A DNA stretch of 64,000 nt from Balamuthia mandrillaris (GCA_031835245.2 JAVKOQ020000083.1:124001-188000), one strand, 5' to 3'. Positions 1 to 63,945 are shown, counted from the first letter of the stretch. Translations and numbers: made by a program. Notes: generated from the sequence alone by a model not told the origin.

Positions 1-3000
1 GGACAAATAATAAATAAACGAGACGAGACAGTTTCAAGGAGCTTACCCTATAGTTATAGGAAGAACGGCCCTCAGAAGAATCCACATCAGAGCGTATTTC
101 AATGGTATCAATGTCCTGGCCTTTGTAGGTTTGTTGCCAAAGCTCTTTGATTATCTTGTTTATTTCTGCCATTTTAACTGAGTGGTACTTCATCAAAGCT
201 CTGTTTCACAATTATTGTTGAAAAAATGATAAGAAAAGAGTATTGCAAAGAAAAGGGAAAATAATAACTTATCCAACGCAACATGGTATTTCTCCAAATC
301 ACTGTTTGCCATTTCCATCGTCTACAAGTGAGCAAGGTTAGAAGAAAGCAAGCAAGCAAGGAAAGCAGGAAAGGAAGAGAATGGGGTCACCTTGACTTTG
401 ATGAGCATCTGTCTGAATTGTTCATCAATGTCTTTGTACATAGGTTTTTTGAGGTCATGAATGTGCTCTCTTATCTGTTGCTTGAAGATATCTCGCTGGC
501 CAATCAGCCTATTAGCTTCCTGGTGCTTCTTCCTTATGTTCTGAGATAAGTTCTCAATGTCAAAGTCAATTGCTTCGCTAGAGCTGAGGTCGAGGGCAGC
601 TTCTTTGGCCTTTATCTCTGCTGCTTTCTCTGCAATGCATTGCTTTTGCTTTCTGTAGCAAATGTTCTCCTCAATGTTGCGTTTGTGTATGTCACTGGTA
701 GCTAACATTTCACGTATTTCATCAAGTTGGGCGCTTAATTCTTCACTTTGGGTGGCAATATCTTGGAGGCAAGACCCTAACTCCACCTTTTGGTCATTCA
801 GTTGTTGGATCTTAATTTGTAAAGTCTCCACACTTGTTCTGGTTTATATTGAGAATTTGTGAGAAAGAAATAATAAAGGCAAGATGTTACAAGTAAGAAA
901 TAAAGAACGAGAGACATATCGTTTTGGCAACAAAGACAAGCAAAGTTTGAGAGATGACACGAAAGAAATGACAAAAAAAAAAAGTACCCTCCAATTTGCT
1001 TTTGTAAATTTTCAATGCAGGCTATGTACTCTTGGTATTGGTCCTTCTCTCGCTGGATCTCATCAAGTTGTTCCTCATATTCTTTTTGCTGCTGAGTTCT
1101 TTTTGAGACCAGTGCTTCCTTCTCGCCTATTTTTTTGTCCAAATCAGCTTTTAGTTTCTATAGAAGTAAGTTGTTAGAGATAGCGAATAGGAAGTTGCAA
1201 AAAAAAAAAAAAACCTCAATTTCTTCTTCAAGAAGTTGGTTGGCCTCGATAAGTTCTTTGCAATTGAGTTCCAACCTTACTATAGCATCTGAAGCAGCTT
1301 TGCTTTGCAGCAATCGCTCTTTGAGCTGATGCATCTCTGACTCTGCTTTATGTCGTGCAGTTTGTTTCTGTTGAAACTGAATCCTTAATTGCTCTAAATT
1401 TGCCATTATGGATTGACTGTCGGAGAATTAGGCATGTGTTGATAGCGGGAGGGGAAACAGGAGGAAAGCTAGGAACGCTGAGGAACCTTTTCTCTTGGAG
1501 CGAAGTCTGTTCAAAATCAAGATCTTCCATGGATCGGTGATCTCCTGAGTCTGTCATGTTGCGTTCTTCTCGCTCTATTTCGGTTTGCAGCCGCTTTACC
1601 TCCATGTAGTCCCTTGAAATGGAGTCTGCGTCGTTGATAAGAGAACAGAGCTTCCTTTCCTCCAAATCTAAAACTTTTAATGATTCAGAGAGCTGGGACA
1701 AAACGAGATAAGTGAAATGGATTTGACCAGCCAAAGAAATGGATCAACAGACCTCGTCTGCTTCCTTGGATAAGTTTGCTTTCTGTTGCTCCAGGGCTTG
1801 CAAACATGACTTCATGCCAGGAATATCTTGGTCTTCTAGTCTAGATATCTCCCTCCACACAGGAGACAGGCCGCTCAACATTTTATGCATTTTCTCGGTA
1901 TCGGTCAAAATGGCCTGTTGTTCGTTGAGGGATGTTGGAACTCTTGCAAGAAGTTGTTCCAGCTTTATGAGATTGTTTGTAAGATAAAAGTGATGACGGA
2001 AATCGCAAATTAAATACAATTTGTAATAAATAAATAAATAAATAAATACGAATACCTTTGAGATGAAGCTGCATAGCATGTCGGGTTCCATGCCTCGGTC
2101 ACAGAGAGGACAGCCTGCCTCCTTATGCGCCATTTCCATGAATTTTTTGTACATTATCTCGCCAGCTTGAGTCATGGCCACCTCCCTTTAAGACATTTAT
2201 GGGAATGATTATGTTACAAAAAAAAACTTGCAGAAAGGGCAAGAGAGAGAAAACAAACTTTCGAATGGCGTCAAGCTTTTGTTCTGTTTCTGTGATAAGG
2301 TCGGGAAGAGGACGGTTGATGTAACCTATTGCCTCCATTTTGGTGCGATTCTCTGTGTTCCAAAAATAACTATATTAGAATTCTTCTGATCCAATAGGCT
2401 ATTAATTTTGCAAGAGTACCGTTCAACTGGCGTTGCAGGCGCTGCAGCTGGGAGGTAGTACTATTCTCTTCACCAGTGAGAGAGGACAGTTTTATCTTGG
2501 TATCTTGTAAACGATTACGGTGTGAGGTCTGGCTTTTCCTTTTTTTGCTGTATTCAATAATGAAGGTAAGCAAATGCTTGAAATGAACAGCACGCTCCCA
2601 CAACAACAAAAAAATAAAAAAATACAATAAAATAAATAAAAAATAAAATTAAAAAATACCTCAACAGCTTATTCAGCTCAACTTTGAGGCGATCGGGAGT
2701 GGGCATGTCTGGAAATAATTCCTCAAAAGCTTGTCGTTTACTTTCCAGCTTGGATTGGTACGACTCTTCTTTGCTTTTGCATTGGCTCCGTTTGATGCTC
2801 AGGCTCGCCCTAGCGGCTGCTTCTAAATTCAGTCCCTTTATCCTATTGCCAATGTCTTTAATCTTCGCATCAAGGTCAGATTTTTCAGCATGCAGCTCAC
2901 TGATTTGTTGATTAATGGCATCGGGGTCAAATCCTTCAATCAACACATTGAGTTCGTTTTCCTGTTGGCGATAAATAGTAGTATTAAGTTGATGAACGCC

Positions 3001-4634
3001 TTTGTCAAATAAAACTCACCTTCGTTTGCAACTGTGCTTCTATTTGAGCTAGATGGCCGTGCGCTCTTCTGTTTTGTTCTATTTCTCGATTGGTAGCGTT
3101 GATGCGATCCTTGTTTGCGTTCTAAGGAAAGCCAATTACAATTTTATGTGAGAAAAATAAAAAGCAAGAAAGGGAAAAATAGGAAGAGAGTATTTACTAA
3201 AGATATGTCCTTCTGCTTTATTTGCTCTCTGATCGTACTGATCTGTTCTTGGACTTGTTCCAGGGCAGACACTATCTCTTGATTTTGTACATTGAAGTTA
3301 TTCTGCAAGTAAGCGTTAGCGTGTTAATGGGTGCGCAAGATAGCAAAGAAAGATAGAGAGAAGAAAGAGAGAGAAGAGCAGAGAGAGAAGAGAGAAGAGA
3401 GAGAGGAAGCGTCAATAAGCTTTTGTTATCATAACATATTTTACCTTAGTATTCGTGATAGCTTTGTTCAAACCAATCGACAAGCTCTTTGTGGTGCTAA
3501 GGAAGTTGGTGATTGTTGCTTGATTGAAAGGGGGCGAATCAAATCCAGGTAAGGAGTAGCGTTGTGCAAATGCCACAATCTGCTTATCACGCTCTAATGA
3601 AAGGGAATGTTGTCGCTGTTTTACAGGTAAAGTTTAGAACACAACAACAGAAAGATTTTAAAAAAAAAAGGGGGGGAGCGCGGAGGGGAAGCAACGTACT
3701 TCAAGGGAGGATTTATGGTTTCCCAATTGCTCGCTGATGTTGTGTAGTGTCTCTTCATGAGATGCCTTTTCGGAGTTAAGCTTTTGAACTCTTGTTTGAA
3801 TGTCTTTTTCAGCTGCAAAGCGGCGCTGCAGTTCTTGGTTGAAGGTCTCCGCCAACGCAAACAGTTCCTCGTCGGTTTCTTTATAACAACAAAGAAAAAA
3901 AATGAATGAAATGCAGTAAGGCTTGTTTAAAAACTATTCCAAACCTTCAAACTCTTGATTCAATTGATCGTAAGTTGCTTGATTTGCTTTTGTCATCTGA
4001 ACGAGTACTGCTTTCAGTTGCTTGACTTCATTTAGGGCTTCAGTGATGGAAGAAGCTTTTTGTCTCAGTTCCATGGAGGCTTTTTCCATGGCCTCGAGTT
4101 CAGCTTGCAGTTTTTTGATCTCCTCTTCGGCGGAGGCTTGAAATTTTTGCTTATTCTTTAGCTCTTTGCGAATCTGCAAACAACAAAAACAAAAATAAAT
4201 TTAAATAAATATAAAGAAAAATAATAATATGAACACAGGATAGTTTCGAGACAATGAACCTGATGAGCGTGATCTTTTTGGTTTTGGAGATTGTCCAGCT
4301 TTAGCTTATATTCGCGGATTTGTTGAGCCTGCTCCTTTCGTTGTTTCTTTATAGTATCCAACGCTTTTGTATATCTGAAACGTGGGGAATAAGCCCAAAC
4401 CCAAGAAGCATAAAGAAGACTAACAAACCTTGTTGCTGCAAATATGTCGTCAAACTTCTTTTTCAAAGAGGAACCTTCAGAGAGGGGCCAGTTTGATTCT
4501 TCTTGATGGCAAAAGATCACGTTCTCCAAAATGGGCTTGGAAACTCCAATCAATTCCGGTATCTCTTTGTCCAAATCCGCACAACGAAAGCTTTGACTTA
4601 CTTTCTGTGGAGTTTGAAGACAGATTTTAGAAAA

Positions 4635-4686
<52 letters not shown>

Positions 4687-5190
4687 TGAAGAAAAAGAGG
4701 AGACGCGGTGTTACCTCCCCGTTGGAGTTATAAGTCTGAAGGGCACTCTCTAGCGTCTTACACACCTTTTTGCTGGCCGTCTGTGTGAGCTGCAACGAGC
4801 GCGTGCAGACGATGGGCTTGCCGTGTACGTTGCGGAAGCGAAGTTTTATCTGAGCCTTCACCTCTCGTTCGCCCGCCACCTTCGTGTCGTGGATGAAAGC
4901 CTGCCCACTGCGGGACCCTGGCGGCAGGTTCCCCGTTGTAGCGTACTTCAAACATTCGATTACGGTCTACATAGGAAATGGAAAAAGAAGAGTCGAAAGG
5001 AGACATGAGGAAGGAGAACAAGAAGAAGTACGCAGAAGTGAATACTATTAGAGAAGAGAGAGAATACCGTTTTCCCAGCACCATTCGCACCAACGATGAT
5101 GGTCAACGGCTGATAGAATTCGATTATGTTTCTGTTCTGGGGGCTAAAGCTTCGTATCCCTTGAATAAGAAGCTTGTCGATGGTGGTCAT
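1..5190 (-). CDS. RAD50: DNA repair protein RAD50 (multi-exon; 3' end runs off the window)
   Basis: ATG at 5190: [15 protein letters not shown]...[10 protein letters not shown] (Walker A); [17 protein letters not shown] (Q-loop); long coiled coil; zinc hook CPLC near 2100-2112; [27 protein letters not shown] near the window start. Confidence 0.97.
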
Positions 5191-5409
5191 CCTCGCAAGC
5201 ACACACACATAAACCAAATACCAGAAATACAAGAAAAAAAAATGATCAACCCTCTGCCTTTTGCTCTTTGATTTCTCTCTCCTCCTCTTTTCTTCAGATC
5301 TCTCTCTGCTACCTTTTTTTTTCTCTGGCTCAATTTTTTCGAGGCAAAATTTCTGAGGGTTTAAATTTATTCCCAGAAAAATTTTATAAACAAAAACAAA
5401 AAAAAGAAA

Positions 5410-8400
5410 ATGTTCGCTGCAACGGATGCGGCGGAGGAACACCGACAAGAAGAAGAAGGCGGAATGCAAGAACAAGGAGAAGATTGTGCAGACCCAGGAC
5501 CGTACGTTTTTTAACATGACTCTTGCTTTTTTTTTTTTTTTTTTTTTTTTGGCTTTGAGAGTATCGAATCGATTGAATTTTCTCTCCGCTACGTTTTTTT
5601 TTCCCCCCCCTCTCTCTCTTTTGATCTCTTCTCTATTATTTTTGTAGTGCTTCAGCGGACACGCTGCGTTTCCTCGTTGCCACGGATAACCATTTGGGCT
5701 ATGCAGAGAAAGATCCAATCAGAGGGGACGACTCTTTCAACACTTTTGAAGAGATACTGCAACTCGCCCAATTTCACAAGGTTATTGCTACTTTTTGATT
5801 CATTTATTTTTACGTCTTGTTTGTGAGCTTTTTGTTGTCTTATGTTGTCTTATGTTGTTGTTGTTCTTCTTTTTCTTCTTTCTTTCTTCGTTCTTCGTGC
5901 TTTGTTCTTCTTATTCTTCTTCTTGTTGGTTTGTAGTGGGTGTCTTTCCTTTGTGTTGTTTTCCTGAATTGTTGCTGTTGTCCTTCTTTTGTGGTTGTGG
6001 TTGTGGTTGATTGTTCATTGGTGCTGCACACAGGTGGACGCCGTTCTGTTGGGAGGAGACCTTTTTCACGACAACAAGCCCTCTCGACGGACCTTGTTTA
6101 GGACAATGCATTTGCTGCGGAAGTATTGCCTTGGCGACAATCCCATCAGCATTCAGATTGTCAGCGACCAATCTATGAACTTTCATTCAGGGTTGGGAGG
6201 ACCTTTCTCTCTCTTTCGCTTTTCTCGTTCTGTTTCTCCTTTTTTTTTTTTTGGCTTTGTCTTGCTCGTGCTTCTCATAATCTTTGTTTCTCCTCTTATG
6301 CTGTGCTAAGAAGACTGTATTCTTATTGATGGTTCTATTTATGATAGCAATGGAGTCAATTACGAGGATCCCAATTTTAATGTCGCCATCCCCGTATTTT
6401 CTATCCATGGCAACCACGATGACCCTACTGGAGTACGTACTCAGCAGTACAGCCACTATTACTTTCCTTATGTGCCACGAAAAACTGACGGACTTTCTCT
6501 CTTTGGTTTGATGTAGGATGGTGGATTAGCTGCATTAGATTTGCTAAGCGTAGCCAATCTCGTGAACTACTTTGGAAAGAGCGAAAATGTAGATGACGTA
6601 ACTGTATATCCGATCTTGCTGACTAAGGGTAAAACCAAAGTGGCCATCTATGGTCTAGGCAATATCCGGGATGAAAGGCTTTATAGGACGTTTCAACAGA
6701 AAAAAGTAAAGCTTATGCGGCCTGTAGAAAGTCGGGAAGAATGGTTTAATATGTTTGTTCTCCACCAGAACCGGTTCGTCCTCTTTCCGCTTATCTCCTC
6801 ATGTTCTTCATCTTCTTCCTCATTCATACTATTGTAGGGTTGCCCACTCTCAAAAGAATTACATTCATGAGTGCATGCTGGACAATTTTTTGGACTTTGT
6901 GATTTGGGGACATGAACATGAATGCTTAATCACTCCTCAATCCAGCACCGTCGGTGACTTTTATATCACACAGCCTGGATCCTCTGTGGCTACTTCTCTT
7001 AGCGAAGGAGAATCCAAGAAAAAGTGACGCCTTTCTCTCGCTTGCTCTCTCTCTCGCTTCTCTTTTTAACTCCGTACTCATTGAAAACAGACATGTTGGT
7101 CTGTTGGAAATTTGTGAGGACCAATTCAGATTAAACGCTATTCCACTCAAGACGGTCCGCCCGTTTTTGATGGAGGAAGTCATCCTTAGAGAACACGATT
7201 TGGATGCGAACGACCCAGAGCAGGTGGTAGAGTTTTTGGGTGACAAAGTACGAGAAATGATTGCTCGCGTTAGCACTGAGTTTCCTAGAGACAATCGGGC
7301 GCCCAAGTTGCCTCTTATTCGTTTGAGGGTACTTGACATCATTCCTTCTCTTGTTTTCTGGTTAGTCAGTGCGCATTTTAATCTTTCCAACGTTAATATC
7401 GGCAGGTAGAGTATGGTGGCTTTTCCACGTGCAATCCGCAACGTTTTGGACAGCAGTTTGTAGGCAAAGTGGCTAATCCAAATGATATTTTACTCTTTTA
7501 CAAAAGAAGAACTGCAACACGTTCGTATTTTCTTTTTTTCTTTTTCTCTTTCCTTTTCTTATCCTTCCCTCCCCTTCCCTCCCCTTCCTCTTCCAATCGC
7601 CAAAGCAAAACAAAAGGAAGAAGGTGAAGCACAAACATTGCTTAAAGCCCACAGGCCTGAACCATTGGATGACACTCGTATCGAGGATTTGATCACGTCT
7701 TACCTTGGCATCAGCCAAAAGTTGGAAATACTACCTGAACATGAGTTTAACATTGCTCTTCACAATTTTGTAGAAAAAGACGAAAGCAAAGCAATAGCGG
7801 AGTATATCTTTCTCTCCTCCCCTCTCTGCTTCTCCCCTCATTTGTACTTGTACTTGTTATGGTATTAATACTATTCTTCAAAGATTTGTGAATAAGAGAC
7901 TTAATGACATGCAACAGTTCTTAGTAGCTGATGATCCTAAGAAAACACTGGAAACGAGCTATTTGCAAACTTTGGTCACTGAGCAAACTGACCAACTCAG
8001 GGTTCAGGTGTCTATCTCTCCTTCTCTCTCTCTCTCTCTCTCTCTCTCTTTGTAATGTATTGGCTGATATGTATTTGTTATCATTAGCATGGCTCTTTGG
8101 AGTCTAGTGAGTTAGGTATGACTATACTTTTGTTGCTTGTTCGTCATGATATTTTTCAACTCAGGTCATATAATTTGAAATCCAGATGAAGAGATTCGAA
8201 AGGAAGAAGCATTGAAAGGAGAATTTCCAGCAAAGCCGAAGTACAGTAGCGATGACGAAGAAAACGAGGATGACTTGTTGGTCGCCAGCAAGCAAAAGCA
8301 TAAGTCAAAAGCCGGGTCTTCAGTGATGCCAACGGCTCCCAACAAGCGACCTCAACAGGTTACAAAGAAATCCAAAGCCGGTTCTTCCAGTGAAACCACC

Positions 8401-9053
8401 GCTACTACTTCCTCCTCTTCCAAAGGATCAAAGAGAGCACCAGCCAAGAAAACAAGGCAAAAGCCTGGCTATGCCCTCGATGTATGCCTCTCGCTTCTTT
8501 CCTTCTGCTTCTTGCCTCTTCATTCCTCCTCTGTTTGCTTCTGCTCTATTGCTCTCTGCTTTTTGCTAACATTTTTCTAAATCGCTTTTTTATGCAGATT
8601 ACAGCAAAGGAAGAACTGCACTCAGACGATGACTTTGCGGATGTTACTATTAACAAGGGAACAAACGAAGCCAATGACAGCACAAGCAACAACAAAGGAA
8701 AGAGAAAGCGGGCAGTCATGAAGCAGGAGAAACAGGATTCTGGAATTCTGGCGATAGCCACGAGTGGCAGTGACGCAGCAGCATCTGAGCAGCCTGCCAC
8801 TACCTCCCGACCGAGACAAAAGAGAAAAACCACAACAATAGCTCCAGCAACATCCCTTTTTTCCACATCAACCAACAACGTAAGTATTCTCTCTCTTTCT
8901 CTGTTACTTCTTTCTTTAGAACTCATTCCCATTCATACACGTTCTTAGCGCAATGAAGAAGCGGATGAAGAAGAGAGCAGTAGCGCAACTACCAGCGGAG
9001 GTGGAGGAGAGGTAGCTACCGTTATCAGCCGGTGGGGGAGACGAAGAAACTAG
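5410..9053 (+). CDS. MRE11: Double-strand break repair nuclease MRE11 (multi-exon)
   Basis: Spliced phosphoesterase motifs [56 protein letters not shown]; capping domain LPLIRLRV...[16 protein letters not shown]; stop TAG 9051-9053. The first exon (ATG 5410) is inferred from splice phase. Confidence 0.96.
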
Positions 9054-16044: not shown

Positions 16045-17012
16045 TTAGAATAGAACAGAGCGAATGGAGCTAGCAGCGGAACCATCCTCACCATCCGCAC
16101 TACCGTCCTCCTCACCGTCCTCCTCACCGTCCTCAGCCTGCGATTGGAAGAGCACTCCATCAATGACGTGGACCACTCCGTTCTGGGTAATGACGTTGGG
16201 CACAACCACCTGCGCTCCATTCACGAAGACGCCGTCGTCGTTGATGGTGACGGTGATGGAGTCCCCGTTGAGCGTGGCGATCTCCTGGCCGTCGGAGAGG
16301 TCGGTGGAGAAGGCAACGCCTGACACTACGTGGCCTTGGAGAGTGTACAAGACTTCCTCGATATCGGCAATGGCAAAGGCATCGTTGGTGGGGGCGAAGA
16401 TGGTGATGGAGGGGGTGGTGTCCACGGTGGTGGCCAGGTCGTTGTCCACGACGGCCTCGAGGAGGGAGCTCAGGCCGGCCTCCTGGGCGGTGGTGCTGGT
16501 GGCCTCGGGGAAGGTGAGCACGGCATCGATGATGTGGATGACGCCATTGTCGCACTCGATGTCAGCCTGGGTGACCGTGGCCTCGGTGTTGAGGCCAAAG
16601 CGGAGGTTGACTTGGGAGCCGTTGAGCTCGATGCCGAGGTTCTGCCCCTTGCCATCGGCCAGCGTCACAAAGGTCTCGTTGGTGAGCAACGTCTCCACGA
16701 ACTGCAGCGGCTCGAGGTCGGTGGACATCACCGCGCCGGAAAGGACGTGGTAGGTCAAGAGGGCCACGACGGTGCTCTCAGGGATGTCGCCCAAGGAGAG
16801 CTCGTTGGCCTCGAGGAAGGCCGCAAAGGCGTCATTGGTGGGTGCGAAGACGGTGAAGTTCCCCTCCCCGTCGAGCACCTCCTCCAGGCCGGCGACCTGG
16901 ATGGCGGCGGCCAAGCTGGTCAGGCCCTCATCGTTCTGGATGTTGTCGAGGATGCTCTGACCTCTCGTGAGGGCAAGCAGAGAGAGAACCACCAACCATT
17001 GGAAGAGCTTCA

Positions 17013-17013
<1 letters not shown>
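16045..17013 (-). CDS. Secreted fasciclin (two FAS1 domains), intronless
   Basis: Signal peptide MKLFQWLVVLSLLALTRG; two copies of FTVFAPTNDAF / ITIFAPTNDAF and NGVIHIIDAVL / NGVVHVIDGVL; acidic DGEE tail. Confidence 0.93.
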
Positions 17014-17059
<46 letters not shown>

Positions 17060-18675
17060 GGTTTTGTGTGCGTTGTGGAGGAGGAAGAGGAAGAAGGAGG
17101 AGGAAGTGTTTGATTCGTGTTGAAAGAGAGAGATGGAAGAGATGAGGGCGGCTCGAGAGGCCTTTTTATGGCTGGATGGACTAGTGGATGGAGAGAGGGC
17201 AAAATGAATTCATTAAGAGGCTTGTCCATCCAATTCTTCCGATTGGCTTGCGGCCGCTCTTGATCGAAGCGTTACGTCAAGCTGCGGTGGAGCATTACAC
17301 GCCCTCCTGTCATGCTGATGCCATCGTGAGGTACTTCCCCACGGGGCCAATAATCGGAGGGCGTCATCCGAAGGTCAGCGTTACGGGATGGGGGTGGGTT
17401 GGAGATGACGCTGCGAGTTGGCGTGGCGGTGTGACGTGAAGGTTGATCGCTCCGCCGGAAAGTTGCGGCAAGGAAAGGGCCGAGCCCGGCCTTGAACGGT
17501 AAAGTTGGTAACGAGAGGAGGCAAGACGAAGAAGAGGAAGAAACAGAAGAAAAAGAAGAAGAAGAAGAAGAAGAAGAAGAAGAAGAAGAAGCAGAACAAG
17601 AGTTTCGTTGTGCGTTCCCGACCGTAGAGTAGATGAAGAAGAAGCCGCGGGCAAAAGCAAGAGCACAAGAATGATGAATGTCATTTCGGTGGACGCCCTA
17701 GGCATCAGTTCCATGAAAAGAATGGAGAAAGACTACTCATCTATTCCCCCACCCACTCACAACAACGGTTATTGGTGGCACAACTTTGTCTGCCAGCAAC
17801 TACAACAGCGTTCAAACGAGTAATAAGTAATATTTGGCTCTCTTTCTCTTTGTTCCTTTCGCACAGCCTCTCCTCCTCGTTTTCTTCCACTTTATATTTT
17901 GCCAAGACTACAAGACTCCACAGGAGCGGTGGAGTTACAAAAGTAGGCTAAACGTACAAAGACGCAACGCTTCTGCTTCAACTACCTCCATTCGAGTGTT
18001 GCGATGGTCGACCGCGGAGGAACTCTAAAAGAGGCCGCCGTTTCCAAAAGGCATGAAAAAAGTGTCAAGAAGAAGAACAAGAACAAGAAGGACTAAAGAC
18101 GAAAGAAAGCAGAAGAAGAAGCAAGAACCAAGAACCAAGAACCAAGAAGAAGCAAGACGCAAGAAGCAAAAGAGGAGCACCTGAAAAATTCGGGACGACA
18201 CGGGTTCACTACCGGGTCGACGTGAAAAATCGAGGGTCCCTCCCAATTAATTCATTAGCGAGCTCTCTTAGCGGTGGTTCATTACAGCGGTCGGTCGTCG
18301 GACCGAAAGTCCAGCTTTGTTGGTTTTATTTAATTGTTGTTGTTGTGGCCCGAGAGAAAAAAAACCGAAAGGAAAGCAAGCGAGCTGTTGTGCGGGGGTC
18401 GCTGTTCCAAAGCCTCTCTGGTAATGCCCCCATTCCCTCTCTCTCTCTCTCTCTATCTTTCTCTTCTCTGCCTTCATAATATTTTTTTTTGTTTTTCCTC
18501 ATCTCTTCTTCTTCGTTTCTCTTTTTTTTGTTGTTGGTTGAATATAACTTTAAAAATATAACAGTTTCTTTTTTTTTTATTTTTTTTATTTTATTAAAGA
18601 GGAAACCAAACCAAACGAGAGAGGAGAAAAAGAGAGAGAAGTCTCGAACGAAAAAAAAAAGCCGCGATCATAAAA

Positions 18676-21679: not shown

Positions 21680-22685
21680 TTAGTAGCCGACAACGATATC
21701 AGCGGCGGGGGCAGCAGCTGCTTGTTGGGGTTGTTCTTGTTGGGGTTGTTCCTGTTGGGCTTGTTGGGCTTGTTGGGCCTGTTGTTGCTGCTCCTGTATC
21801 ATCATTTCCACAACGTTAGTAGCACAAGTGGTGTAGAAGGCGGAGAGCTCGGGCTGCTGCTGTTGTTGGTCTTGGGCTTGGGCTCCCTGCTGCTGTGCCT
21901 GTTGTCCCTGGCCTTGTTGCTGCTGGCCGCCAGTCTGTTGTTCCTGACCAGTCGGTTGCTGACCTTGCTGCTCCTGGCCTTGTTGCTGCTGGCCGCCAGT
22001 CTGTTGCTCCTGACCAGTCGGTTGCTGACCTTGCTGCTCCTGACCAGTCGGTTGCTGCTGTGCTTGCTGTTGTTGTTGCTGCTGAGCAAGTTCAGGGGGT
22101 TGGCCGATCAAGAACGTGGTCAACAGATCTCCCGTGAATTGAGAGAGTTGCTGTGGAGCGTCCCCAGGAATCTCAAAGAGGACTTGGCCTTCTTGCTGCT
22201 GTCGTCGTTGTTGCTGGCCGCCCATCTGTTGCTGGCCGCCGGTCTGCTGTCCTTGCTGCTCCTGGCCGGTCTGTTGCTGACCTTGCTGCTCCTGGCCTTG
22301 CTGTTGTCCGAGGACAACGATGGACTGCACTTGATCGGGAGAGAGAGGCGTCCAGTCCATCCTCTGGTAGGGGAACAACACGAATTCCTCAAGCACCTGT
22401 TCTTGTTGCCGCTTGGTCTGAGCTCCTTGCTGCTCCTGGCCGCCGGTCTGCTGTCCAGTCTGTCCTTGCTGCTCCTGGCCGGTCTGCTGCTGCTGGCCTT
22501 CTTGTTGTTGCTGAGAGCCCGTTACTCGGACGGTGAGGGGGAAGGGAGCGTTGGCGGCGGTGTGCCAGAACGCCAGGCCCACTTGGTTATCCTCGATATC
22601 TATGCCATTAACCTTGTCGTAGATGAGGGCCAGAGGGATTTCCTGTCCTTCGAACTGGATCGGGAACGAGCCTACCACCGTTACT

Positions 22686-22735
<50 letters not shown>

Positions 22736-23503
22736 GTTTTGGGCTTGGGCTCCCTGCTGCTGAGCTTGTTGTCCTTGCTGTTCCTGGCCGGTCTGTTGCT
22801 GAGCGCCAGCCTGCTGTCCAGTCTGTCCTTGCTGCTGCTGGCCTCCTTGTTGTTGCATTTGTTGTTCCATCTGTTGTTGCACCTCAGGAGAGACCTGGAT
22901 GCGGTGGGAGATGACGAGGTAGTGCACCGGCAACTCCTGTTGCTGCTGTTGGCGAGTTTGCATCTGCTGGCCGGTTCCCTGTTGCTCCTGGCCTCCTTCT
23001 TGCTGCTGACCTTCTGGTTGCTGCTGGCCTTCTTGCTGGGCGCCTTGCTGTTGTTGCATCTGCATGGCCTCCGCCGATGTGTCGAAGTTGACAAGGGCGA
23101 TGTAGTCTGCACAGCCCTCCGGCTGTTGTTGCTGCTGTTGTTGGTCTTGAGCCTGGCCTTCCTGCTGCTGGCCCTCTTGACCCTCTTGTTGCTGGGCCTC
23201 TTGTCCCTCTTGTTGCTGGGCCTGTTGTCCTTGTTGTGGCTGCTGCGCCTCCTCCTGTTGAGAGAAGATACGAACGGGGACCTCAGCCTGCATTTCGCCT
23301 TGCATGCCGCAGGGGACGTTCATCAGGGTCTCGCACTGCTCCGGCATCAGCCCGTTGACCATCTGGTCGCCGACCTCCACCGTGAGCGGCACGTCGATGC
23401 CCAGCGCGTTCACCACGACCACGTTGCACATCTGTTGCTCCTCCTGTTGAGCGAGGCAACAGGAGGCGGCCATCAGCGCCAGAAGAAGCAAGTATGTCTT
23501 CAT
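21680..23503 (-). CDS. Secreted glutamine-rich repetitive protein with an interrupted DUF4397-like beta scaffold, intronless
   Basis: Signal peptide MKTYLLLLALMAASCCLA; ordered hydrophobic segments separated by Q/G/E repeats; strong C/G-ending codon bias on the minus strand. The domain identity is inferred. Confidence 0.8.
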
Positions 23504-51595: not shown

Positions 51596-52211
51596 ATGAA
51601 CCGCAACAAAGTTTATCTGTTGTGGATTGTGTGCGCTGTTGTTTGTGCCGTCGTGCCAGGCGGCAGGGCTGCAAACCAATGCAGCAGCTCAGCGGTGGCA
51701 AGAACCACGGCCACCACCGTCGTTGAGGGTGGTTGCAAGGGAGCTTTCACTTTCGGATATGGTTTGTTGCTGCTTTTGTTGGAATTGTATTTCTAGAGTT
51801 CTTGGTTTGTTTTTAATGCTAACAGCTACATTAAAGCGGAGGATGTACAAAGCAGGCTTGAAGCAAGCGGCTTCGGATCCAGCGCCAGTGGATATGGTTT
51901 GTTATCTGTTCATGTTGTGTTTCCTGTCTTGTGTTATTTATTCATTCTTTGCACCTCGTTGGCCCTGTACTTAATTATCGTTTGTAGTTGGTGTTGGAAC
52001 AATTGTAGCGTCCGGAACAGGGTCTCACGCCTCTGGTTATGGTACGTTCTGGGGTGCAGCAGCTCGCCATCTTCGATTGTTTAAACGGATTGTTGTTTCG
52101 TATCAAAGTGGACATTGACGGTGAGATTACGGCTTCATTTGATGGGAGCGTAGCCATGGGTTACGGTAAAACCTTCTCTTTTTGTTCTCTTTGCTCTCCT
52201 CCCAATCTCCC

Positions 52212-52246
<35 letters not shown>

Positions 52247-53302
52247 CTCTTTCCCTCTCGCAAGCTGCACCTTGCTTTTATCATTTTGGATTACTGTTTG
52301 TTCTCCATCTCTCGTTTGCAAACAACAATCGGAAAGGGGTGGCTGATGCAGCAGCCAATTTATCTGTTTGTTTTCTTTCTTGCAGGTGATGAAGATGGCG
52401 AAATCATATCCACGGGACAAGGCAGTTTTGCATTGGGCTTTGGTACGTATGGTGTCCATTGGTGGAACCCCAACGCATTATTGTTGATTGTTCTTCCTTT
52501 CCTGAAGCTGATGACGACAGCGAAATCGAATCCACGGGACAAGGCAGTTTTGCATTGGGGTATGGTACGTATGGTGTCCATTGGTTTCACCCCAAAGACA
52601 AGTTCTTATTTACTGTTATTTCTTCTCTGTCCCTGAAGTGGATGACGGCAGCGAGATAGCATCCACGGGAGAAGGCACTTTTGCGTTCGGCTCTGGTATG
52701 TATGGTGTCCATTGGCTTCATCCCAAGGTAAAGTTTTGCATTATTGTTGATCCTTCTCTCTTTCCTGAAGCTGATGAAGACAGCGAGATAGCATCCACGG
52801 GAGAAGGCACTTTTGCGTTGGGCTTTTGTGCGTATTCCCTCTTCAAACCCAACGCAGCATCACAAGGCAAAAGAGCGAAAAAGAACATACTAACCGATTC
52901 ACGTTGTGTGCAGCACTCAATGGCAGCTCCATCACTTCTACTGGCCATGGATCGTTTGCCGTGGGTGATGGTATGCTACCTAGCCTGCCTCCCGTCTCCC
53001 TCCTCTTGTGGACCCTAACTCTCCTCCGCTTTCTCTCTATCTCTCTCCTTCTCTTCCTTTGCACATGCAGCTGACTTTAATAGTAACATCACTTCTACTG
53101 GCTGGGGTTCTTTTGCCATGGGTGACAGTACGGCAGTCCTTGATCTTTTTTTCTCCTTGGCGACAAGCGCATAACTTTGATGTTCTCCACAGCATTTGAT
53201 GATGGTACGCTTGCTGCAACCGACGATGGAGCCTTCGTCTTGGGATATGGTTAGTTTCTCTTCTAATCCTTTCTAGTTCTGCATGTATTGTGTTGTAGTC
53301 TA

Positions 53303-53371
<69 letters not shown>

Positions 53372-53848
53372 ACGTCATTGTTAAATAAATCACATTGAAC
53401 AGCTGAAGAAAGTTCCTCGCTGAGGTCGAACGGCGAGGGGTCCATTGCTATGGGAAAAGGTTTTATCCTCACATGGTTCGACTGACATCCGTGAGTCTTT
53501 CTTTCTCACCACACACTCGCTTCATAGCCTCAGACAACGGACTCATTGAATCACAATCTGATGGGTCTGTAGCACATGGGTTTGGTACTGTGACATGACT
53601 GTCTCTTAGTTACCTATTGTTGTGATTGATGTCCTCTCCAACCACCGTCCCTTCTCTCTCTCTCTCTCTCTCCCTCTCCCTCTCTCCTCTCTCGTCTGCG
53701 ATCACAGCGGTAAATTCCAGTTCAATTGTTGCAGTCGAAGCAGGGTCATTTGCTGCTGGCATTGGTACATAGGCGTTGTTTCTTCTTTGCTCCTTTTCAT
53801 TCAGTGCTCCTTCTTATTACTTCTCTTGCTCTCTCCCTCCCTCTCTCC

Positions 53849-53896
<48 letters not shown>

Positions 53897-54945
53897 GTGT
53901 TCGACTCAGCGGACGCAAATTCTGGTATTACTGCTGAATCCATCGGGTCTATTGCCATGGGTGCAGGTACCTCACTCTTACTCTTTCTTCTTTTTTCTAT
54001 CTAGCACCAAAGGTTTTGTGCCAAACTAACTCCAATTACCCAACAGCACAGGAGAACGGAGTTATCGTTGCCAAGGCTCCAGGGGCATTTGCCACCGGGT
54101 TTGGTTTGTCAATTCTGTTTTCTGTTTGGTGATAGTCACAGCAATGGAGTTCTCCTTCACCTAATCCCCGTTCTTTTTGTCCTGTATGTTGTGGATTCTT
54201 CTGCTTGCTCATCATCATCATCTTCTTCTTCTGGCTTAATGTTCTCCTTCTTGTTCTTCTACGTTGATTATTTTGTGTTGTACTCGATTTCTTTATAGCT
54301 GTATGGAATGGAACAATCAGAGCAACCGATGTAGGTGCTCATGCCTCTGGAGTGGGTAAACCTTTTCATCCCTTTGTTTTGATACCTGAACAACTGGAGC
54401 TCCTTGCTGATGCTAGAACATGACACCACACAAACCAAAATGAATAAAAAGCCTTTGGTGGCAACAGCGTTGCCGCAACAGCGCCTGGATCCTTTGCCCA
54501 CGGAATCAACATCCGGACCTCTACCATCGGCGGCATGGTGGCAGGCAGGTGCAACAACCCTACTGACGAGGCGAGCCTTGGCACCGGAGAGGCAGTTTTC
54601 GCGGTAGGAGTTGGGGACCCCAACCCGTTAACAGGGTTATGTGACTCGTCCTTTACAGGGATGATGCTGGACTCGAATGGCGATCTCTTCCTGAAGGGCG
54701 ACATCTTCTTGCAAGGCACCGTTTCTGACAGCCAGACCCTCAACCTGAGAAGCAGTGATGGAAGCCAACAATCACCAGTGTCTTTGTCCCTATCTTTGAT
54801 CTCCTCCAGAGAGAAAATGGCTGCTTTGGAAGCCGAACTGAAGGACGCTCGTCAACAACTGGCAACCACTCGTGCGGAAGTAGAAGAGCTGAAGCTGTTG
54901 GTTAAGTCTCTGTTGCAGAAAGAGGCGCCTCAGAGTCAGGAGTAG
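51596..54945 (+). CDS. Secreted beta-roll repeat protein (YadA-head or phage tail-fibre-like) with C-terminal coiled coil; 18 exons, one repeat per exon
   Basis: Signal peptide MNRNKVYLLWIVCAVVCAVVPGGRA; 16 internal phase-1 exons each encoding AxxxxxIx[AS]xGxG[SA][FIVH]AxG[YF]; last exon VFAVGVG...MLDSNGDLFLKGDIF plus heptad repeats; stop at 54943-54945. Confidence 0.85.
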
Positions 54946-60224: not shown

Positions 60225-60809
60225 TTAGGGAGAAGAAGAAGGAGAAGAAGAAGAAGAAGAAGAAGAACAAGAAGAAGAAGAAGAAGAAGAAGAAGAAGGA
60301 GGAGAAGAAGGAGAAGAGGATGATGAAGACGGACAAGCCTCGCTCATTGAAGATGACGAAGGCCTAGGAGAAACTATCTCATCCCCAGCCGTCGGCTCCT
60401 CCATTGCGAACGAGTATGTCCAGACCTGGAGGGCCGCCCGTCTCTGGCCGAGGAACAGGGTAACATTGCCGGCGAGCAGACTAAAAGTGCAAGGGCGGGT
60501 CGTGTAAGCCTGTAGGTGATCCTCCATGGGGAAGCACAGGCGCGAACTCATGCTCTCATCCACGAAGAACGTCATGACAACCTTGGTGCCGCCTCGTAAA
60601 CGAGGCAGGTGGGGGTGCAACTCACCAGGCCATTCCGAGTTTTGCCAGTCCTCCCCCTGCATGGTTAAGGTTGCGCTGGATTGCAGCGGGATTGCTGGGC
60701 ACATGGGGTTGGGAGTATCTGGGAGTTCCACCACAAGAAAAACGCTCCGGACTCTGCTCAACCAAGAAAGATCTGGGGTAGTGGTCGCGAGGCACAACTT
60801 TCTTTCCAT
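60225..60809 (-). CDS. Hypothetical protein, paralogue A of an unknown family
   Basis: Aligns with 61591-62070 (LRGGTKVVMTFFVDESM vs LRGQTKVIMTFFEDENM; EPTAGDEI vs EPTSGDEI); Ser-rich tail. The start is uncertain. Confidence 0.65.
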   Translation of the reverse strand: MERKLCLATTTPDLSWLSRVRSVFLVVELPDTPNPMCPAIPLQSSATLTMQGEDWQNSEWPGELHPHLPRLRGGTKVVMTFFVDESMSSRLCFPMEDHLQAYTTRPCTFSLLAGNVTLFLGQRRAALQVWTYSFAMEEPTAGDEIVSPRPSSSSMSEACPSSSSSSPSSPPSSSSSSSSSCSSSSSSSSPSSSP

Positions 60810-61590
60810 TCGGTTCACCAACTGTTCTGCTTGGCTTCTGTGAGGCTTGTGTTTGTTCCTCCCTCCTTTGCTCTTTGGGCGTTGCTTTTTTTTTTTGTGG
60901 TTTGTGCGAAGCCTGAGAGATATGGACGTTTGTTTGGTTAACACACCTGTGGCGGCCGCAGTTTGTTGTGCAGCTGTCGGAGCTGTTCGTTTGGCCGGCA
61001 GGAGGGCGCTTCGGCAGCAGCATTTCCTACATGACCGAAAAGAAATGGTGGCGGGGAAAATTAGTGTCGACGAGGACCGCACAGCCAAACCAAACACATA
61101 ACGCTACGTTTTTTTTTTTTTTTTGATTGCTAAGAGCAGACGAAGAAGATAAACGTTATTTTTCATTCTTTTTTTTTTTTTTTTTTGATTGTTTAGAGGT
61201 GGAAATTTCTTTTAGAAAATCCGCAAAGTTTCCGCTCAACTTACCCACGTCGACAAAAATTTGCTTTTGTGTTTTGTTTGAAAAAAAAAAGGCAATAACT
61301 TGGACAGAACAACAACAGGTAGGCTATGGAGATGACGGGGTAGATTTCCTACGCAAAGGAGACAAAGGAGGCGTGGGAGGTGAAGAAGACGATGTTGATG
61401 ACGGAGACGGCGTTGACGAAGCAGACGAAGTGGACGAAGTGGTGGTATACGGAGGAGAAGAAGGGGAGGAAGGAGACGAAGAAGACGAAGTCGATGACGG
61501 AGAGGACGTTGACGAAGTGGACGAAGTGGTGGTATACGGAGTAGACAAAGGCGAAGAAGGGGAGGAAGGAGACGAAGAAGACGAAGTTGC

Positions 61591-62070
61591 CTAAGGGGAC
61601 GGAGTACGCGAGGCAGACGAAGTAGACGGAGATATCTCATCCCCGCTTGTTGGTTCCTTGTCAAACTCCATGGTAGTCGGCTCATGTACGGATATGTCCA
61701 CGAGGTTTTGATGAAGCTTTACGGTTAAACCATCAAACCTGCAGCTGAAAGTAGCGCTGTTTAGTAAGGGCTTTAGATGTATCTGAATGGGGTAGCAGTT
61801 TCGTGTCCTCATATTCTCGTCCTCGAAGAAGGTCATGATGACCTTGGTTTGGCCACGAAGTTGCGGCGGTTGTTGATACAGCGTGCCACGCCACCTCAGG
61901 CCAACCTTGGTTAAGACCGCACTTATTTGCAATGAGTCGGGAGAGTAGATTGTATCGTGTATCTCTGGGAACTCCATACACAAACAAAAAAGTCGAGGCG
62001 TTGGCCAGCCAAGACGTATCATAGGCATAAGCAGCGCTGGTTGAAGTCGTCGAGCTTTCCATGCTCTCAT
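61591..62070 (-). CDS. Hypothetical protein, paralogue B of an unknown family; the frame continues past TAG to 61324
   Basis: Paralogy with 60225-60809; in-frame Ser/Thr/Pro repeats continue beyond the stop. Confidence 0.65.
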   Translation of the reverse strand: MRAWKARRLQPALLMPMIRLGWPTPRLFCLCMEFPEIHDTIYSPDSLQISAVLTKVGLRWRGTLYQQPPQLRGQTKVIMTFFEDENMRTRNCYPIQIHLKPLLNSATFSCRFDGLTVKLHQNLVDISVHEPTTMEFDKEPTSGDEISPSTSSASRTPSP

Positions 62071-62249
62071 CGTGTTGGTTGCGTTGAAGTGGGAGGGGTG
62101 GGGTGGTAGTGTGCGTGGCGGTGCTTGTTGTGCGTTTGCTGCAGGGAGGGAGGACAGAAAGACCAAAAAAAAAAAAAAGGTGCTACGTTTTTTTGCTACG
62201 TTTTTTTTTTTCAAAAAAAAAAACAAAGTTCGCACACATCGTCGGTTGG

Positions 62250-63945
62250 TCAGGCCACAGGGTCAGCGGCGTAGTGCGCAATGGAAGGAGAGCGATAGCC
62301 ATCCTCTCTCCACGTGATCGGGAAGAAGGTCTCCTCCATTTCGGTCTTCCCGTGCATCTTATATCTGCCATAAATGTACTGTACCCAGTTTTGTTTAAAA
62401 GTTAAAACGAGTGTTGAAGAGGAGAGAGAGACGTGGTTAGTTAGAGAGAAAAGGGTGAGATAGAGAGAGAGAATCGTACGCCAACATTGTCTGGCTTGAA
62501 TCGACAGTCGTGACGGATGGCATGAACTGCCAAGCTCCTGCGTATTCTGTCCTTGCTCACGTTTTTACCGGAACCATGCCACAACCTTCCATCCTTGTTG
62601 TTTGTTGTCGAAGGTCAATGATAAGTTACAATAGATAGGAAAGAAGAACGAACATGAAAAGCACATCCACCAATGGGTACTTCCACAGAGACAATGTCTG
62701 GTTGTGCGCCAGAGGCAGCAGCCGCTTTCCTAAGTGCTCTTTGATAGTCCACACTGGTGAAAAAGTCTTTCATGATGCCGCTTTCATCGTCGGCATTGTT
62801 GTTATTTGTTGTTGTCGGCTTCCAAAGATGAGAGCCTCGGGCGTATTGCAGAGTGCCTGCCTCTTCTGTGGTGTCGTCTAATGCTATCCAACATGTCACC
62901 ACTTCATTGGCCTTTAAGAAGCAGAGATGATGGTGAGAGAAGATATCAAGAAAGCAGAAGCTGAAGAAGAAGAAGAAGAACAAGAACAAGAACAAGAACA
63001 AGAAGAACAAGAACAAGACGAAGAAGAAGCAGCAAGAAGCAAAAGTAGAAGCAGAAGAAGCATAAAGACTAACTGGTTCAAGAAAGTCGAAGTAAGGAGA
63101 ATCTTGGTGGAAAGCGACAGCAGCGGTGCCTGGTGGCTTCCACCTGCATATCATTCCGCATAAGCAAGAAGTACTAAAACAGAAAGAAAAGAATAAAGAA
63201 AGAAGAGCAAAAGCCAAAAAGGAAGAGAAGAGAAGAGAGAAGGAGGAGAGGGAGAAAAGGGATGGCAACCAGACGTCATCTTGGGCGATGCGCGTGCCCT
63301 GCCAGCCCATCAGTTGGGAGATGATGCGGCCAAGCCTCTCCGACAGGACAACGCTGGCTATCGTCGTATCGCTTTTCCACTGTCACCCCATCGCAAAAAT
63401 AAATAAATATATAAATAAATAAAATAAAATAAAATAAAATAAAATAAAATAAAATAAAATAAAAATAAATAAATAGATAAAATAACATTAAATAACATTA
63501 AATAAAATAAAACTAAACAAAAATACAAAAAATAATAAATAAATAAACAAAACGTACATACAGCGTTAACGATCTCGCGCGTAACGTCGTCCCTGCTCAT
63601 GCCCTTACGCCAGTGCCACTCGTCGGGGTAAACGCCGGTGTCAAACTCGCCGGCAAACAGCGGCTCCACCTTGGCCTGAAGCCGCAAGGCCAGCCGCCGG
63701 TCCAGCAGCTCGGGCAGCACCAAGAAGCCCTCCCTGCGGAACCGCTCCCTCTGCTCGTTGCTCAGCATTCCATTATGCTTTTGGCTGCTGCTGCTGGTGG
63801 TGGAATAGAAATGGCTGCAAAGTGAGGAAGAAGAGGAGGATGAAGATGGGTTGGAAAAGAAGGAAGGAAGGTAAGGTTTTTTAGTCCAGGTGGGTCTGAA
63901 GGCCTTCAGCAGCCCTCCTCTTCCCATCTGCGCAGTGCTGTGCAT
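62250..63945 (-). CDS. Phytanoyl-CoA dioxygenase (PhyH) family Fe(II)/2OG dioxygenase, probable mitochondrial presequence
   Basis: QRERFRREGFLVL; WKPPG...FHQD (HxD); VTCWIALDD..E.GTL.Y.RGSH; LWHGSG.N...RRSL. Confidence 0.9.

What the first reader, a model, noticed from the sequence alone, without database searches (positions are those of the whole stretch)
51596..54945. Adhesin or tail-fibre-like beta-roll protein built one repeat per exon (14 consecutive 57-nt phase-1 exons)
Seen: the ORF track misses this gene, but GT-AG splicing gives a signal-peptide exon and then 16 symmetric phase-1 exons. Two are 51837-51896 (60 nt) and 51988-52041 (54 nt). Fourteen are exactly 57 nt, starting at 52109, 52386, 52508, 52639, 52771, 52914, 53071, 53193, 53403, 53528, 53708, 53910, 54047 and 54299. 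Each encodes one repeat, e.g. ADDDSEIESTGQGSFALGY, AEESSSLRSNGEGSIAMGK, ADANSGITAESIGSIAMGA. The last exon adds one more repeat, FAVGVG...LDSNGDLFLKGDIF and a heptad coiled coil, with no TM segment or beta-barrel. Known: S-x-A-x-G repeats form the left-handed beta-roll heads of trimeric autotransporter adhesins (YadA/Hep_Hag) and some phage tail fibres. Inference: this is a secreted trimeric fibre of possible bacterial or phage ancestry. Because every exon can be skipped or duplicated in frame, rung number and surface could vary by splicing or exon gain, making a candidate modular surface-variation or adhesion system.
Basis: partly seen in the sequence, partly recalled or inferred. Interest (0 to 1): 0.88.

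Follow-up and report, generated by a model that had tools for sequence, protein, structure and literature searches.

The report
Exon-per-rung phage-type fibre in Balamuthia
The brain-infecting amoeba Balamuthia carries a spliced gene made of 18 short repeats, nearly all one per exon, whose closest relatives are intron-free genes on phage and environmental DNA; it likely encodes a secreted three-chain binding fibre borrowed from a phage and lengthened by exon copying, and nothing found shows that splicing varies it.

Summary
The 18-exon model holds: 17 of 17 introns are GT-AG and phase 1, 14 exons are 57 nt, and the frame is open for 523 aa. An RNA contig joins exons 14-15-16, and an NCBI Balamuthia mandrillaris model joins 15-18. 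Each 19-aa repeat fits the 14-residue YadA-type beta-roll rung plus a 5-residue acidic insert. The same 19-mer occurs in intronless genes on viral and metagenome contigs (best E 9e-58; reversed and shuffled controls 0); no family name or solved structure was found for it. The last exon carries a post-head module like that of phage/Bacteroidota YadA-S74 fibres and a coiled coil, but no barrel and no S74 motif. Exons 5-8 were copied together with their introns. Likely a phage-derived secreted trimeric fibre; the trimer, location and ligand are untested. No exon skipping was seen, at very low depth. The scan noted other spliced protist fibres before (e1-7308811, e1-7449325). One-repeat-per-exon genes are known in brown algae.

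The parts
51596..51761 (+). Exon 1: ATG, hydrophobic signal-like peptide, two further Cys, degenerate repeat 1
   Evidence: signal peptide inferred from hydropathy only
51837..51896 (+). Exon 2 (60 nt), repeat 2
51988..52041 (+). Exon 3 (54 nt), repeat 3
52109..52165 (+). Exon 4 (57 nt), repeat 4
52386..52827 (+). Exons 5-8 (52386-52442, 52508-52564, 52639-52695, 52771-52827) with homologous introns 5-7: recent tandem copies of an exon+intron unit
   Evidence: exons 74-88% identical; introns 5, 6, 7 align with z 13.5-17.3; family D4
52914..53127 (+). Exons 9 and 10 (52914-52970, 53071-53127), an older duplicate pair, 67% identical
53193..53584 (+). Exons 11-13 (53193-53249, 53403-53459, 53528-53584), one repeat each
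   Evidence: about two X2 reads' worth of depth over the exon 12 and 13 bins
53708..54103 (+). Exons 14-16 (53708-53764, 53910-53966, 54047-54103), joined in order in an RNA contig
   Evidence: X1 record 1, 0 mismatches
54299..54355 (+). Exon 17 (57 nt), repeat 17
   Evidence: joined 16-17-18 in NCBI model P0001
54452..54945 (+). Exon 18: repeat 18, post-head beta module with two Cys, linker without the S74 catalytic motif, heptad coiled coil, stop
   Evidence: X1 contig over 54502-54659

Best explanation
This spliced Balamuthia gene of 18 repeats likely encodes a secreted, three-chain beta-roll fibre that likely came from a phage tail-fibre gene, was lengthened by copying exon-plus-intron units, and likely serves as an extracellular binding or adhesion protein. 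Shown: the gene model, splicing at two junctions, duplication of exons 5-8 with their introns, and sequence kinship of the 19-aa repeat to intronless viral and metagenome genes. Inferred: the protein enters the ER through its N-terminal peptide; the C-terminal coiled coil sets the register of three chains in place of the missing S74 chaperone or barrel; each repeat forms one rung of a left-handed parallel beta-roll, about 8 nm for 18 rungs by the BpaC rise; the 5-residue acidic inserts and all four N-glycosylation sequons face outward and form the binding surface; Cys pairs staple the N-terminal cap and the post-head module. With no TM or GPI-like tail it would be released or held on the surface or cyst coat by a partner. 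One intron at the rung boundary would let rung number change over evolutionary time without breaking the frame.
For: Gene model. Register: the last 14 residues of the 18 repeats score a mean of 3.7 bits on a profile of 520 14-mers from 63 phage/bacterial ORFs, against -13.1 +/- 1.6 (max -6.8) in 5000 within-repeat shuffles; the best place for a 5-residue insert is positions 1-5. Intronless kin: 36 of 2866 ORFs from 151 loci hit at E<1e-3 (19 of 32 viral loci, 17 of 119 metagenome loci; 28 distinct sequences), best 9e-58; the reversed query and 5 shuffles gave 0. Their 94 19-mers share A1, G/S5, I7, A/S9, G11 and Y19, positions not in the search pattern. L296 passes without a break from 14-aa to 19-aa rungs. 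Two of 15 proteins tested from these loci carry tail-fibre PHROG segments, and the 527-kb record G406 has a phage terminase. Post-head module: hhalign probability 90.7; score 26.5 against a maximum of 15.5 in 150 shuffles. That family's profile hits BpaC, CbpF, UspA1 and YadA. Atlas best clusters are S74-fragment/YadA_head (0.95) and a Bacteroidota cluster (0.94). The top 2 of 48,161 chains by VIA are the YadA head (Z 5.4, rmsd 4.6, 95 aligned) and UspA1 head+neck (Z 5.3, rmsd 9.2, 146 aligned). The flanking genes are eukaryotic and intron-rich (PBZ, LanC-like).
Against: The fold model was built on an alignment of the family I proposed, so searches are partly circular; Z under 8 is common, and Foldseek against PDB gave nothing at E<=0.001. 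Residues 1-48 of the model (the 19-aa repeats) stayed under pLDDT 50. An HMM of 32 phage modules ranked the last exon first of 564 window ORFs, but only at P about 0.002, level with the best of 1000 shuffles; the module without the repeat scored 17.4 against a shuffle maximum of 16.8. The 19-mer family profile matched neither the 14-mer family (probability 9.6) nor any solved structure. No Pfam YadA_head hit for P0001. The 19-mer kin lack the post-head module, so no single donor architecture was found and the direction of transfer was not tested with a tree. The loci were chosen by a pattern taken from this gene's own repeats. Expression was barely detectable in X2-X4. No data bear on location or ligand.
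Confidence: 0.6

Rival explanations
1. Same fibre fold, but a structural coat or cyst-wall protein rather than an adhesin: the acidic rung loops would bind cations or wall polymers, and the gene would be switched on at encystment.
For: The repeat region has a net charge of -38 over 18 rungs, against about -0.3 per rung in the phage kin. There is no membrane anchor. Few reads in three RNA runs would fit a stage-specific gene. Acanthamoeba uses a bacteria-derived beta-helical protein, Jonah, in its cyst wall (PMC11423589, passages).
Against: The solved relatives of the fold are adhesin heads. The repeats differ more from the other B. mandrillaris record than the last exon does (7 of 53 against 5 of 164 residues, Fisher P 0.01), though most of the changes are conservative. 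The stage of runs X1-X4 is not known.
Confidence: 0.22
2. A splicing-based variation system: symmetric exons are skipped or included to give fibres of different length and surface, as reported for brown-algal LRR exons.
For: 16 symmetric phase-1 exons can each be dropped in frame. Four exons have in-frame inner AGs. One X1 contig reads on into intron 16. Precedent in PMC11378527 (abstract).
Against: All joins seen are between neighbours and no skip joint was listed. Only one related protein turned up in three homolog searches. Exon symmetry follows from tandem duplication of one unit. pN is below pS in 6 of 7 close exon pairs.
Confidence: 0.1
3. A weakly expressed relic of a transferred viral gene with no present function.
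For: 6, 4 and 0 reads at 95% identity or better among 12.9 million records each in X2, X3 and X4. The S74 motif is absent.
Against: An intact frame over 18 exons, invariant G13 and G18 in 18 of 18 repeats, correct splicing, pN below pS, and 97% identity of the last exon in a second record.
Confidence: 0.05
4. The repeat arose in the amoebal lineage, or is an old eukaryotic gene, and resembles the viral genes by convergence or by transfer from eukaryote to virus.
For: Short G/A/S-rich repeats score high easily (large bias terms). The top Atlas cluster is 91% eukaryotic. No tree was built.
Against: Reversed and shuffled controls gave 0 hits. Unsearched positions agree. A second, independent module also matches phage/bacterial fibres. 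The kin include a terminase-bearing 527-kb record.
Confidence: 0.08

Closest known systems
Left-handed parallel beta-roll heads of trimeric autotransporter adhesins (YadA 1p9h, UspA1 3ntn, BpaC 7o23; Pfam PF05658)
   Same: 14-residue rung core with invariant G@8 and A@6 in register (definition from PMC9543794, passages); head, then beta module, then coiled coil; acidic surface as in BpaC.
   Different: A 5-residue insert per rung (19-aa period); no beta-barrel anchor; eukaryotic secretion; one rung per exon; no PF05658 hit for P0001.
Intronless 19-aa-repeat proteins on IMG/VR and metagenome contigs (L271, L297, L287, L296, L376 and others; no family name found for the repeat)
   Same: Nearly the same 19-mer profile; an alignment over about 340 residues with L271; some carry tail-fibre or collagen segments.
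   Different: No introns; different C-terminal modules; near-neutral rungs; often 600-1200 aa.
Phage and Bacteroidota YadA_head + post-head module + Peptidase_S74 fibres (e.g. L147, L179), and Bdellovibrio MAT fibres (PMC10769870, passages)
   Same: Repeats followed by a collinear post-head module and a terminal coiled coil; signal-bearing trimeric fibres, used for prey binding in Bdellovibrio.
   Different: Their rung is 14 aa in the loci fetched; S74 and its SDxxxK motif are absent here; the MAT passages read describe beta-helical tips and do not mention YadA.
[quoted passage not shown]
   Same: Each repeat sits on its own exon; the array is remodelled by exon gain.
   Different: Those are multi-gene intracellular LRR/TPR receptors with reported shuffling, diversifying selection and alternative splicing; none of these was shown here.
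TLP-12 glycofibril candidates of alveolates (10.1101/2025.09.30.679562, passages) and Acanthamoeba Jonah lectins (PMC11423589, passages)
   Same: Protist extracellular proteins built on phage- or bacteria-type beta folds.
   Different: TLP-12 is an intertwined 12-residue triple beta-helix of about 20,000 aa with an ICA domain; Jonah is a three-sided beta-helix.

Membership tests
Trimeric autotransporter adhesin | C-terminal beta-barrel anchor | tested here: not met
   The last exon ends in a heptad coiled coil; no anchor family in Pfam, NCBIfam or PHROGs
Trimeric autotransporter adhesin head (LPBR) | 14-residue rung with G@8 and A@6 in register | tested here: met
   (with a 5-residue insert); G18 in 18 of 18 and A16 in 16 of 18 repeats
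Trimeric autotransporter adhesin head (LPBR) | Pfam YadA_head (PF05658) match | tested here: inconclusive
   No hit for the four-repeat P0001; the full spliced protein was not scanned
Trimeric autotransporter adhesin head (LPBR) | Left-handed parallel beta-roll fold | tested here: inconclusive
   VIA best hits YadA Z 5.4 and UspA1 Z 5.3 on a family-guided model; 19-aa repeats unresolved; Foldseek PDB nothing at E<=0.001
Trimeric autotransporter adhesin head (LPBR) | Homotrimer | not tested
S74/ICA self-cleaving fibres | S74 domain with SDxxxK catalytic motif | tested here: not met
   Two SD sites, neither followed by K at +5; no PF13884 hit
S74/ICA self-cleaving fibres | Post-head beta module as in YadA_head-S74 proteins | tested here: met
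   hhalign probability 90.7; 0 of 150 shuffles reach the score; weak by HMM
Intronless 19-aa-repeat viral/metagenome fibre proteins | 19-residue repeat profile | tested here: met
   (probability 96.7)
Intronless 19-aa-repeat viral/metagenome fibre proteins | Their C-terminal module | tested here: not met
   The last exon finds 0 of 2866 ORFs at E<1e-3
Exon-shuffled repeat receptors (brown-algal ROCO type) | One repeat per symmetric exon | tested here: met
Exon-shuffled repeat receptors (brown-algal ROCO type) | Alternative splicing of repeat exons | tested here: inconclusive
   No skip joint listed, at depth of about 4 or less over the exons
Exon-shuffled repeat receptors (brown-algal ROCO type) | Multi-gene family with diversifying selection | tested here: inconclusive
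   One hit in three protein searches; genome not held; pN below pS in 6 of 7 pairs; repeats more variable than the last exon between two records

The most novel reading that the evidence does not exclude
A human-pathogenic amoeba has turned a phage tail-fibre head of an undescribed 19-residue rung type into a tunable adhesin: rung number and surface change by exon skipping within a strain and by exon gain between strains, giving a phage-like host-range device for binding prey or host tissue.
Probability: 0.12. Interest if true: 0.85.

Novelty: new variant of a known kind. Interest (0 to 1): 0.55.

Why it matters
The one B. mandrillaris annotation paper checked does not mention adhesins, autotransporters or this locus (PMC10471605; term search of the main text and one supplement). 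The one NCBI record found covers only the last 219 residues as a hypothetical protein. The full model offers a concrete secreted candidate for studying attachment, the cyst coat or diagnostics. It also shows how a likely phage-derived repeat gene can be rebuilt in a eukaryote as an exon-per-rung array, with the duplication caught in exons 5-8. It further points to a 19-residue beta-roll rung family in viral contigs for which no Pfam family, PHROG repeat family or solved structure was found.

Tried and rejected
No genome was held for the window, so paralogues and exon counts in other strains could not be examined. No RNA holder on record was listed; the best holder X1 proved to contain spliced contigs when laid. 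A second read layout with neighbouring genes as an expression control was not obtained. Longer-protein homolog searches found none of 1679 and none of 7992 candidates. Nothing in PDB sequences, PHROGs or NCBIfam, GenBank phages and plasmids, viral, genome or metagenome contigs by direct peptide patterns (41, 42, 103), or 401 genomes of one Bacteroidota-centred phylum sample (64). Single-sequence AlphaFold of the last exon gave pLDDT 46 with only the coil resolved (28). 14-aa-rung family ORFs are weak matches to the spliced model: one at E 6e-4, none, none in the pooled 5520 ORFs (137). Rows dropped: L008 and L060, and also L155, L171 and L201, as chance motif matches; seven of the 28 distinct hits (six acidic repeat ORFs and L275) were left out of the profile. 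A giant-virus donor was suggested by Pithovirus rows; NCLDV capsid and A32 markers were absent from 4 and 5 records (126, 128; the capsid control rang nowhere, so that blank shows nothing) and no paper was found (104). Paper searches listed nothing describing this gene; a term search of the nitroxoline preprint found no relevant words (106), and its supplements, which could hold expression data for this gene, are closed. Intron pairs among 4, 9, 11, 13 and 14 with high z were set aside as CT-microsatellite matches.

Full report
Observation. Joined with exon 1 (51596-51761) and exon 18 (54452-54945) they give 1572 nt, 523 aa and a single terminal stop; all 17 introns are phase 1. Exon 1 also ends in a degenerate repeat, so the protein has 18 repeats. 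A loose scan of both strands of the 64 kb found 20 such exon-like units, 19 in this gene and 1 elsewhere, so the array is not chance.

Organism and transcript. The last exon matched one protein of 145 candidates, KAL6064523.1, a partial hypothetical protein of Balamuthia mandrillaris, at 97% identity. That record joins repeats 15, 16, 17 and the last exon exactly as modelled. A 266-nt contig in run X1 joins exons 14-15-16 with no mismatch and then reads 120 nt into intron 16; intron 16 has an in-frame stop at its tenth codon, so this is most simply an incompletely spliced RNA. Runs X2, X3 and X4 gave 6, 4 and 0 reads at 95% identity or better among 12.9 million records each (3-5% of each run), and no joint was listed for them. 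Introns 1-13 are therefore unconfirmed and skipping is untested. The neighbours are a PBZ-domain gene upstream and a LanC-like gene downstream, both on the minus strand, in an intron-rich eukaryotic contig.

How the array grew. Exons 5-8 are 74-88% identical, exons 9 and 10 are 67% identical, and the other pairs are 26-58% identical. Introns 5, 6 and 7 align with each other (z 13.5-17.3, the top three of 136 pairs) (repeat families D3 and D4). Whole exon+intron units were therefore copied in tandem, which by itself explains the uniform length and phase. pN is below pS in 6 of 7 close pairs; the exception is exons 7-8 (pS 0, pN 0.10). Against the NCBI record the repeats differ at 7 of 53 residues and the last exon at 5 of 164 (Fisher P 0.01); most changes are conservative, and the record may be another allele or a paralogue.

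What the repeat is. G13 and G18 are invariant in 18 of 18 repeats, A16 is in 16, and position 7 is I/L/V in all. YadA-type rungs are defined as 14 residues with conserved G@8 and A@6 (PMC9543794, passages). Positions 6-19 fit a profile of 520 such 14-mers far above within-repeat shuffles (3.7 against -13.1 +/- 1.6 bits, the two selecting positions excluded), and the extra five residues fit best at positions 1-5, straight after the intron. These inserts are acidic (net -38 over the repeats), and all four N-glycosylation sequons fall at repeat positions 3-6, as expected for an outward loop; that placement is inference.

Closest relatives. Standard searches failed (see Tried and rejected). A pattern for two core motifs 57 nt apart returned 32 viral loci (all matches) and 119 metagenome loci (of about 570 estimated). 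Of their 2866 ORFs, 36 matched the spliced model at E<1e-3, best 9e-58, with one alignment covering about 340 residues; a reversed query and five shuffles gave none. Motif spacing in these proteins peaks at 19. The profile of 94 of their 19-mers, from 21 selected ORFs, agrees with the amoebal repeats at positions 1, 5, 7, 9, 11 and 19, which the pattern did not specify. L295, L296 and L313 carry 14-aa and 19-aa rungs in one chain, and L296 switches between them without a break, which ties the 19-mer to the YadA-type roll; a direct profile comparison of the two families was not significant (probability 9.6). The genes are intronless. Two of 15 proteins tested carry tail-fibre PHROG segments, two of 15 carry collagen, and one of five records searched has a phage terminase. 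No Pfam family covers the repeat and no solved structure matches by sequence.

The last exon. After repeat 18 comes a module that I recognised from memory as typical of Bacteroidota and phage fibres. I fetched such proteins with a recalled motif (120 and 119 loci, both samples of larger sets). Six of 9 scanned pass the YadA_head cut-off and 5 of 9 carry Peptidase_S74, and their profile hits BpaC, CbpF, UspA1 and YadA in PDB. The last exon aligns with them collinearly (probability 90.7; alignment). It scores 26.5 against a maximum of 15.5 in 150 shuffles; without the repeat it scores 17.4 against 16.8, and an HMM test was marginal. The Atlas, queried before I picked any family, returned S74-fragment/YadA_head and Bacteroidota clusters first (0.95 and 0.94; similar). 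The S74 catalytic motif SDxxxK (PMC10769870, passages) is absent; 11 of 53 module-bearing ORFs have such a motif downstream within the DNA held. The chain ends in a heptad coiled coil with no barrel, TM or hydrophobic tail. AlphaFold of P0001 on the family alignment gave mean pLDDT 72, high for the module and coil and under 50 for residues 1-48. Its best structural matches were the YadA and UspA1 heads at Z 5.4 and 5.3 and YadA-like or S74 viral proteins (3 rows at E<=0.001); PDB Foldseek found nothing significant. These matches are modest and partly circular.

Reading. The protein is a mosaic of the kind usual in phage fibres: a 19-aa-rung head shared with one viral family, a post-head module shared with another, and a coiled coil. 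The likeliest history is transfer from a phage or its bacterial host, gain of a signal peptide and of one intron at the rung boundary, then tandem copying of exon+intron units. The likeliest role is an extracellular trimeric binding fibre (0.6). A structural coat or cyst-wall role (0.22), splicing-driven variation (0.1), convergence or reverse transfer (0.08) and a relic (0.05) are the rivals. It works like a YadA head or tail fibre, but it is neither a trimeric autotransporter nor an S74 fibre.

Novelty. One-repeat-per-exon arrays are known from brown-algal ROCO and TPR genes (PMC3341825, PMC11378527; abstracts). Phage- or bacteria-type beta fibres are known in protists (TLP-12 candidates; Jonah), and YadA-like and S74 genes occur in algal viruses (PMC12906663, passages). 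This scan has unchecked notes on other spliced protist fibres. Paper searches listed nothing on this gene or on an exon-per-rung beta-roll. It is a new variant of a known kind, of moderate interest, raised by the host being a poorly studied pathogen and by the apparently unnamed 19-mer family.

Noticed in passing
L271:30-2756, L297:1778-4072, L287:3-3401, L296:3-3077, L376:765-2645: An intronless family of 600-1200-aa proteins with 18-21-aa beta-roll-type repeats on viral and metagenome contigs, with no Pfam or PDB match for the repeat; several end in a shared short beta module. L295 and L296 lie 6 kb apart on one 481-kb contig and mix 14-aa and 19-aa rungs.
   Followed up: partly
window 52696-52770: Intron 7 is 75 nt, in frame and free of stops, so retention would insert 25 residues; the other five in-frame introns (1, 11, 13, 16, 17) carry stops.
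   Followed up: no
window 52395, 52780, 53409, 53534: In-frame AG dinucleotides 6-9 nt inside exons 5, 8, 12 and 13 could act as alternative acceptors that trim only the acidic insert.
   Followed up: no
window 54104-54223: The X1 contig with spliced introns 14 and 15 continues unspliced into intron 16.
   Followed up: partly
window 41600-47800: A GH15/trehalase-like gene (minus strand) lies head to head with an alpha-amylase-family gene that looks like trehalose synthase TreS (name from recall); both are spliced and look bacterial in type.
   Followed up: no
window 300-9000: RAD50-like (minus) and MRE11-like (plus) genes are arranged head to head with under 1 kb between them (AAA_23 hit; names from recall).
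   Followed up: no
window 21680-23500, minus strand: A long unbroken ORF with a signal-like start and extreme Gln/Gly-rich repeats between short ordered segments; no Pfam hit.
   Followed up: no
window 16045-17100, minus strand: A secreted-looking protein with two fasciclin domains on one open frame, another adhesion candidate.
   Followed up: no
window 60225-62262, minus strand: Two similar ORFs (60225-61103, 61591-62262) look like tandem paralogues without a Pfam family.
   Followed up: no
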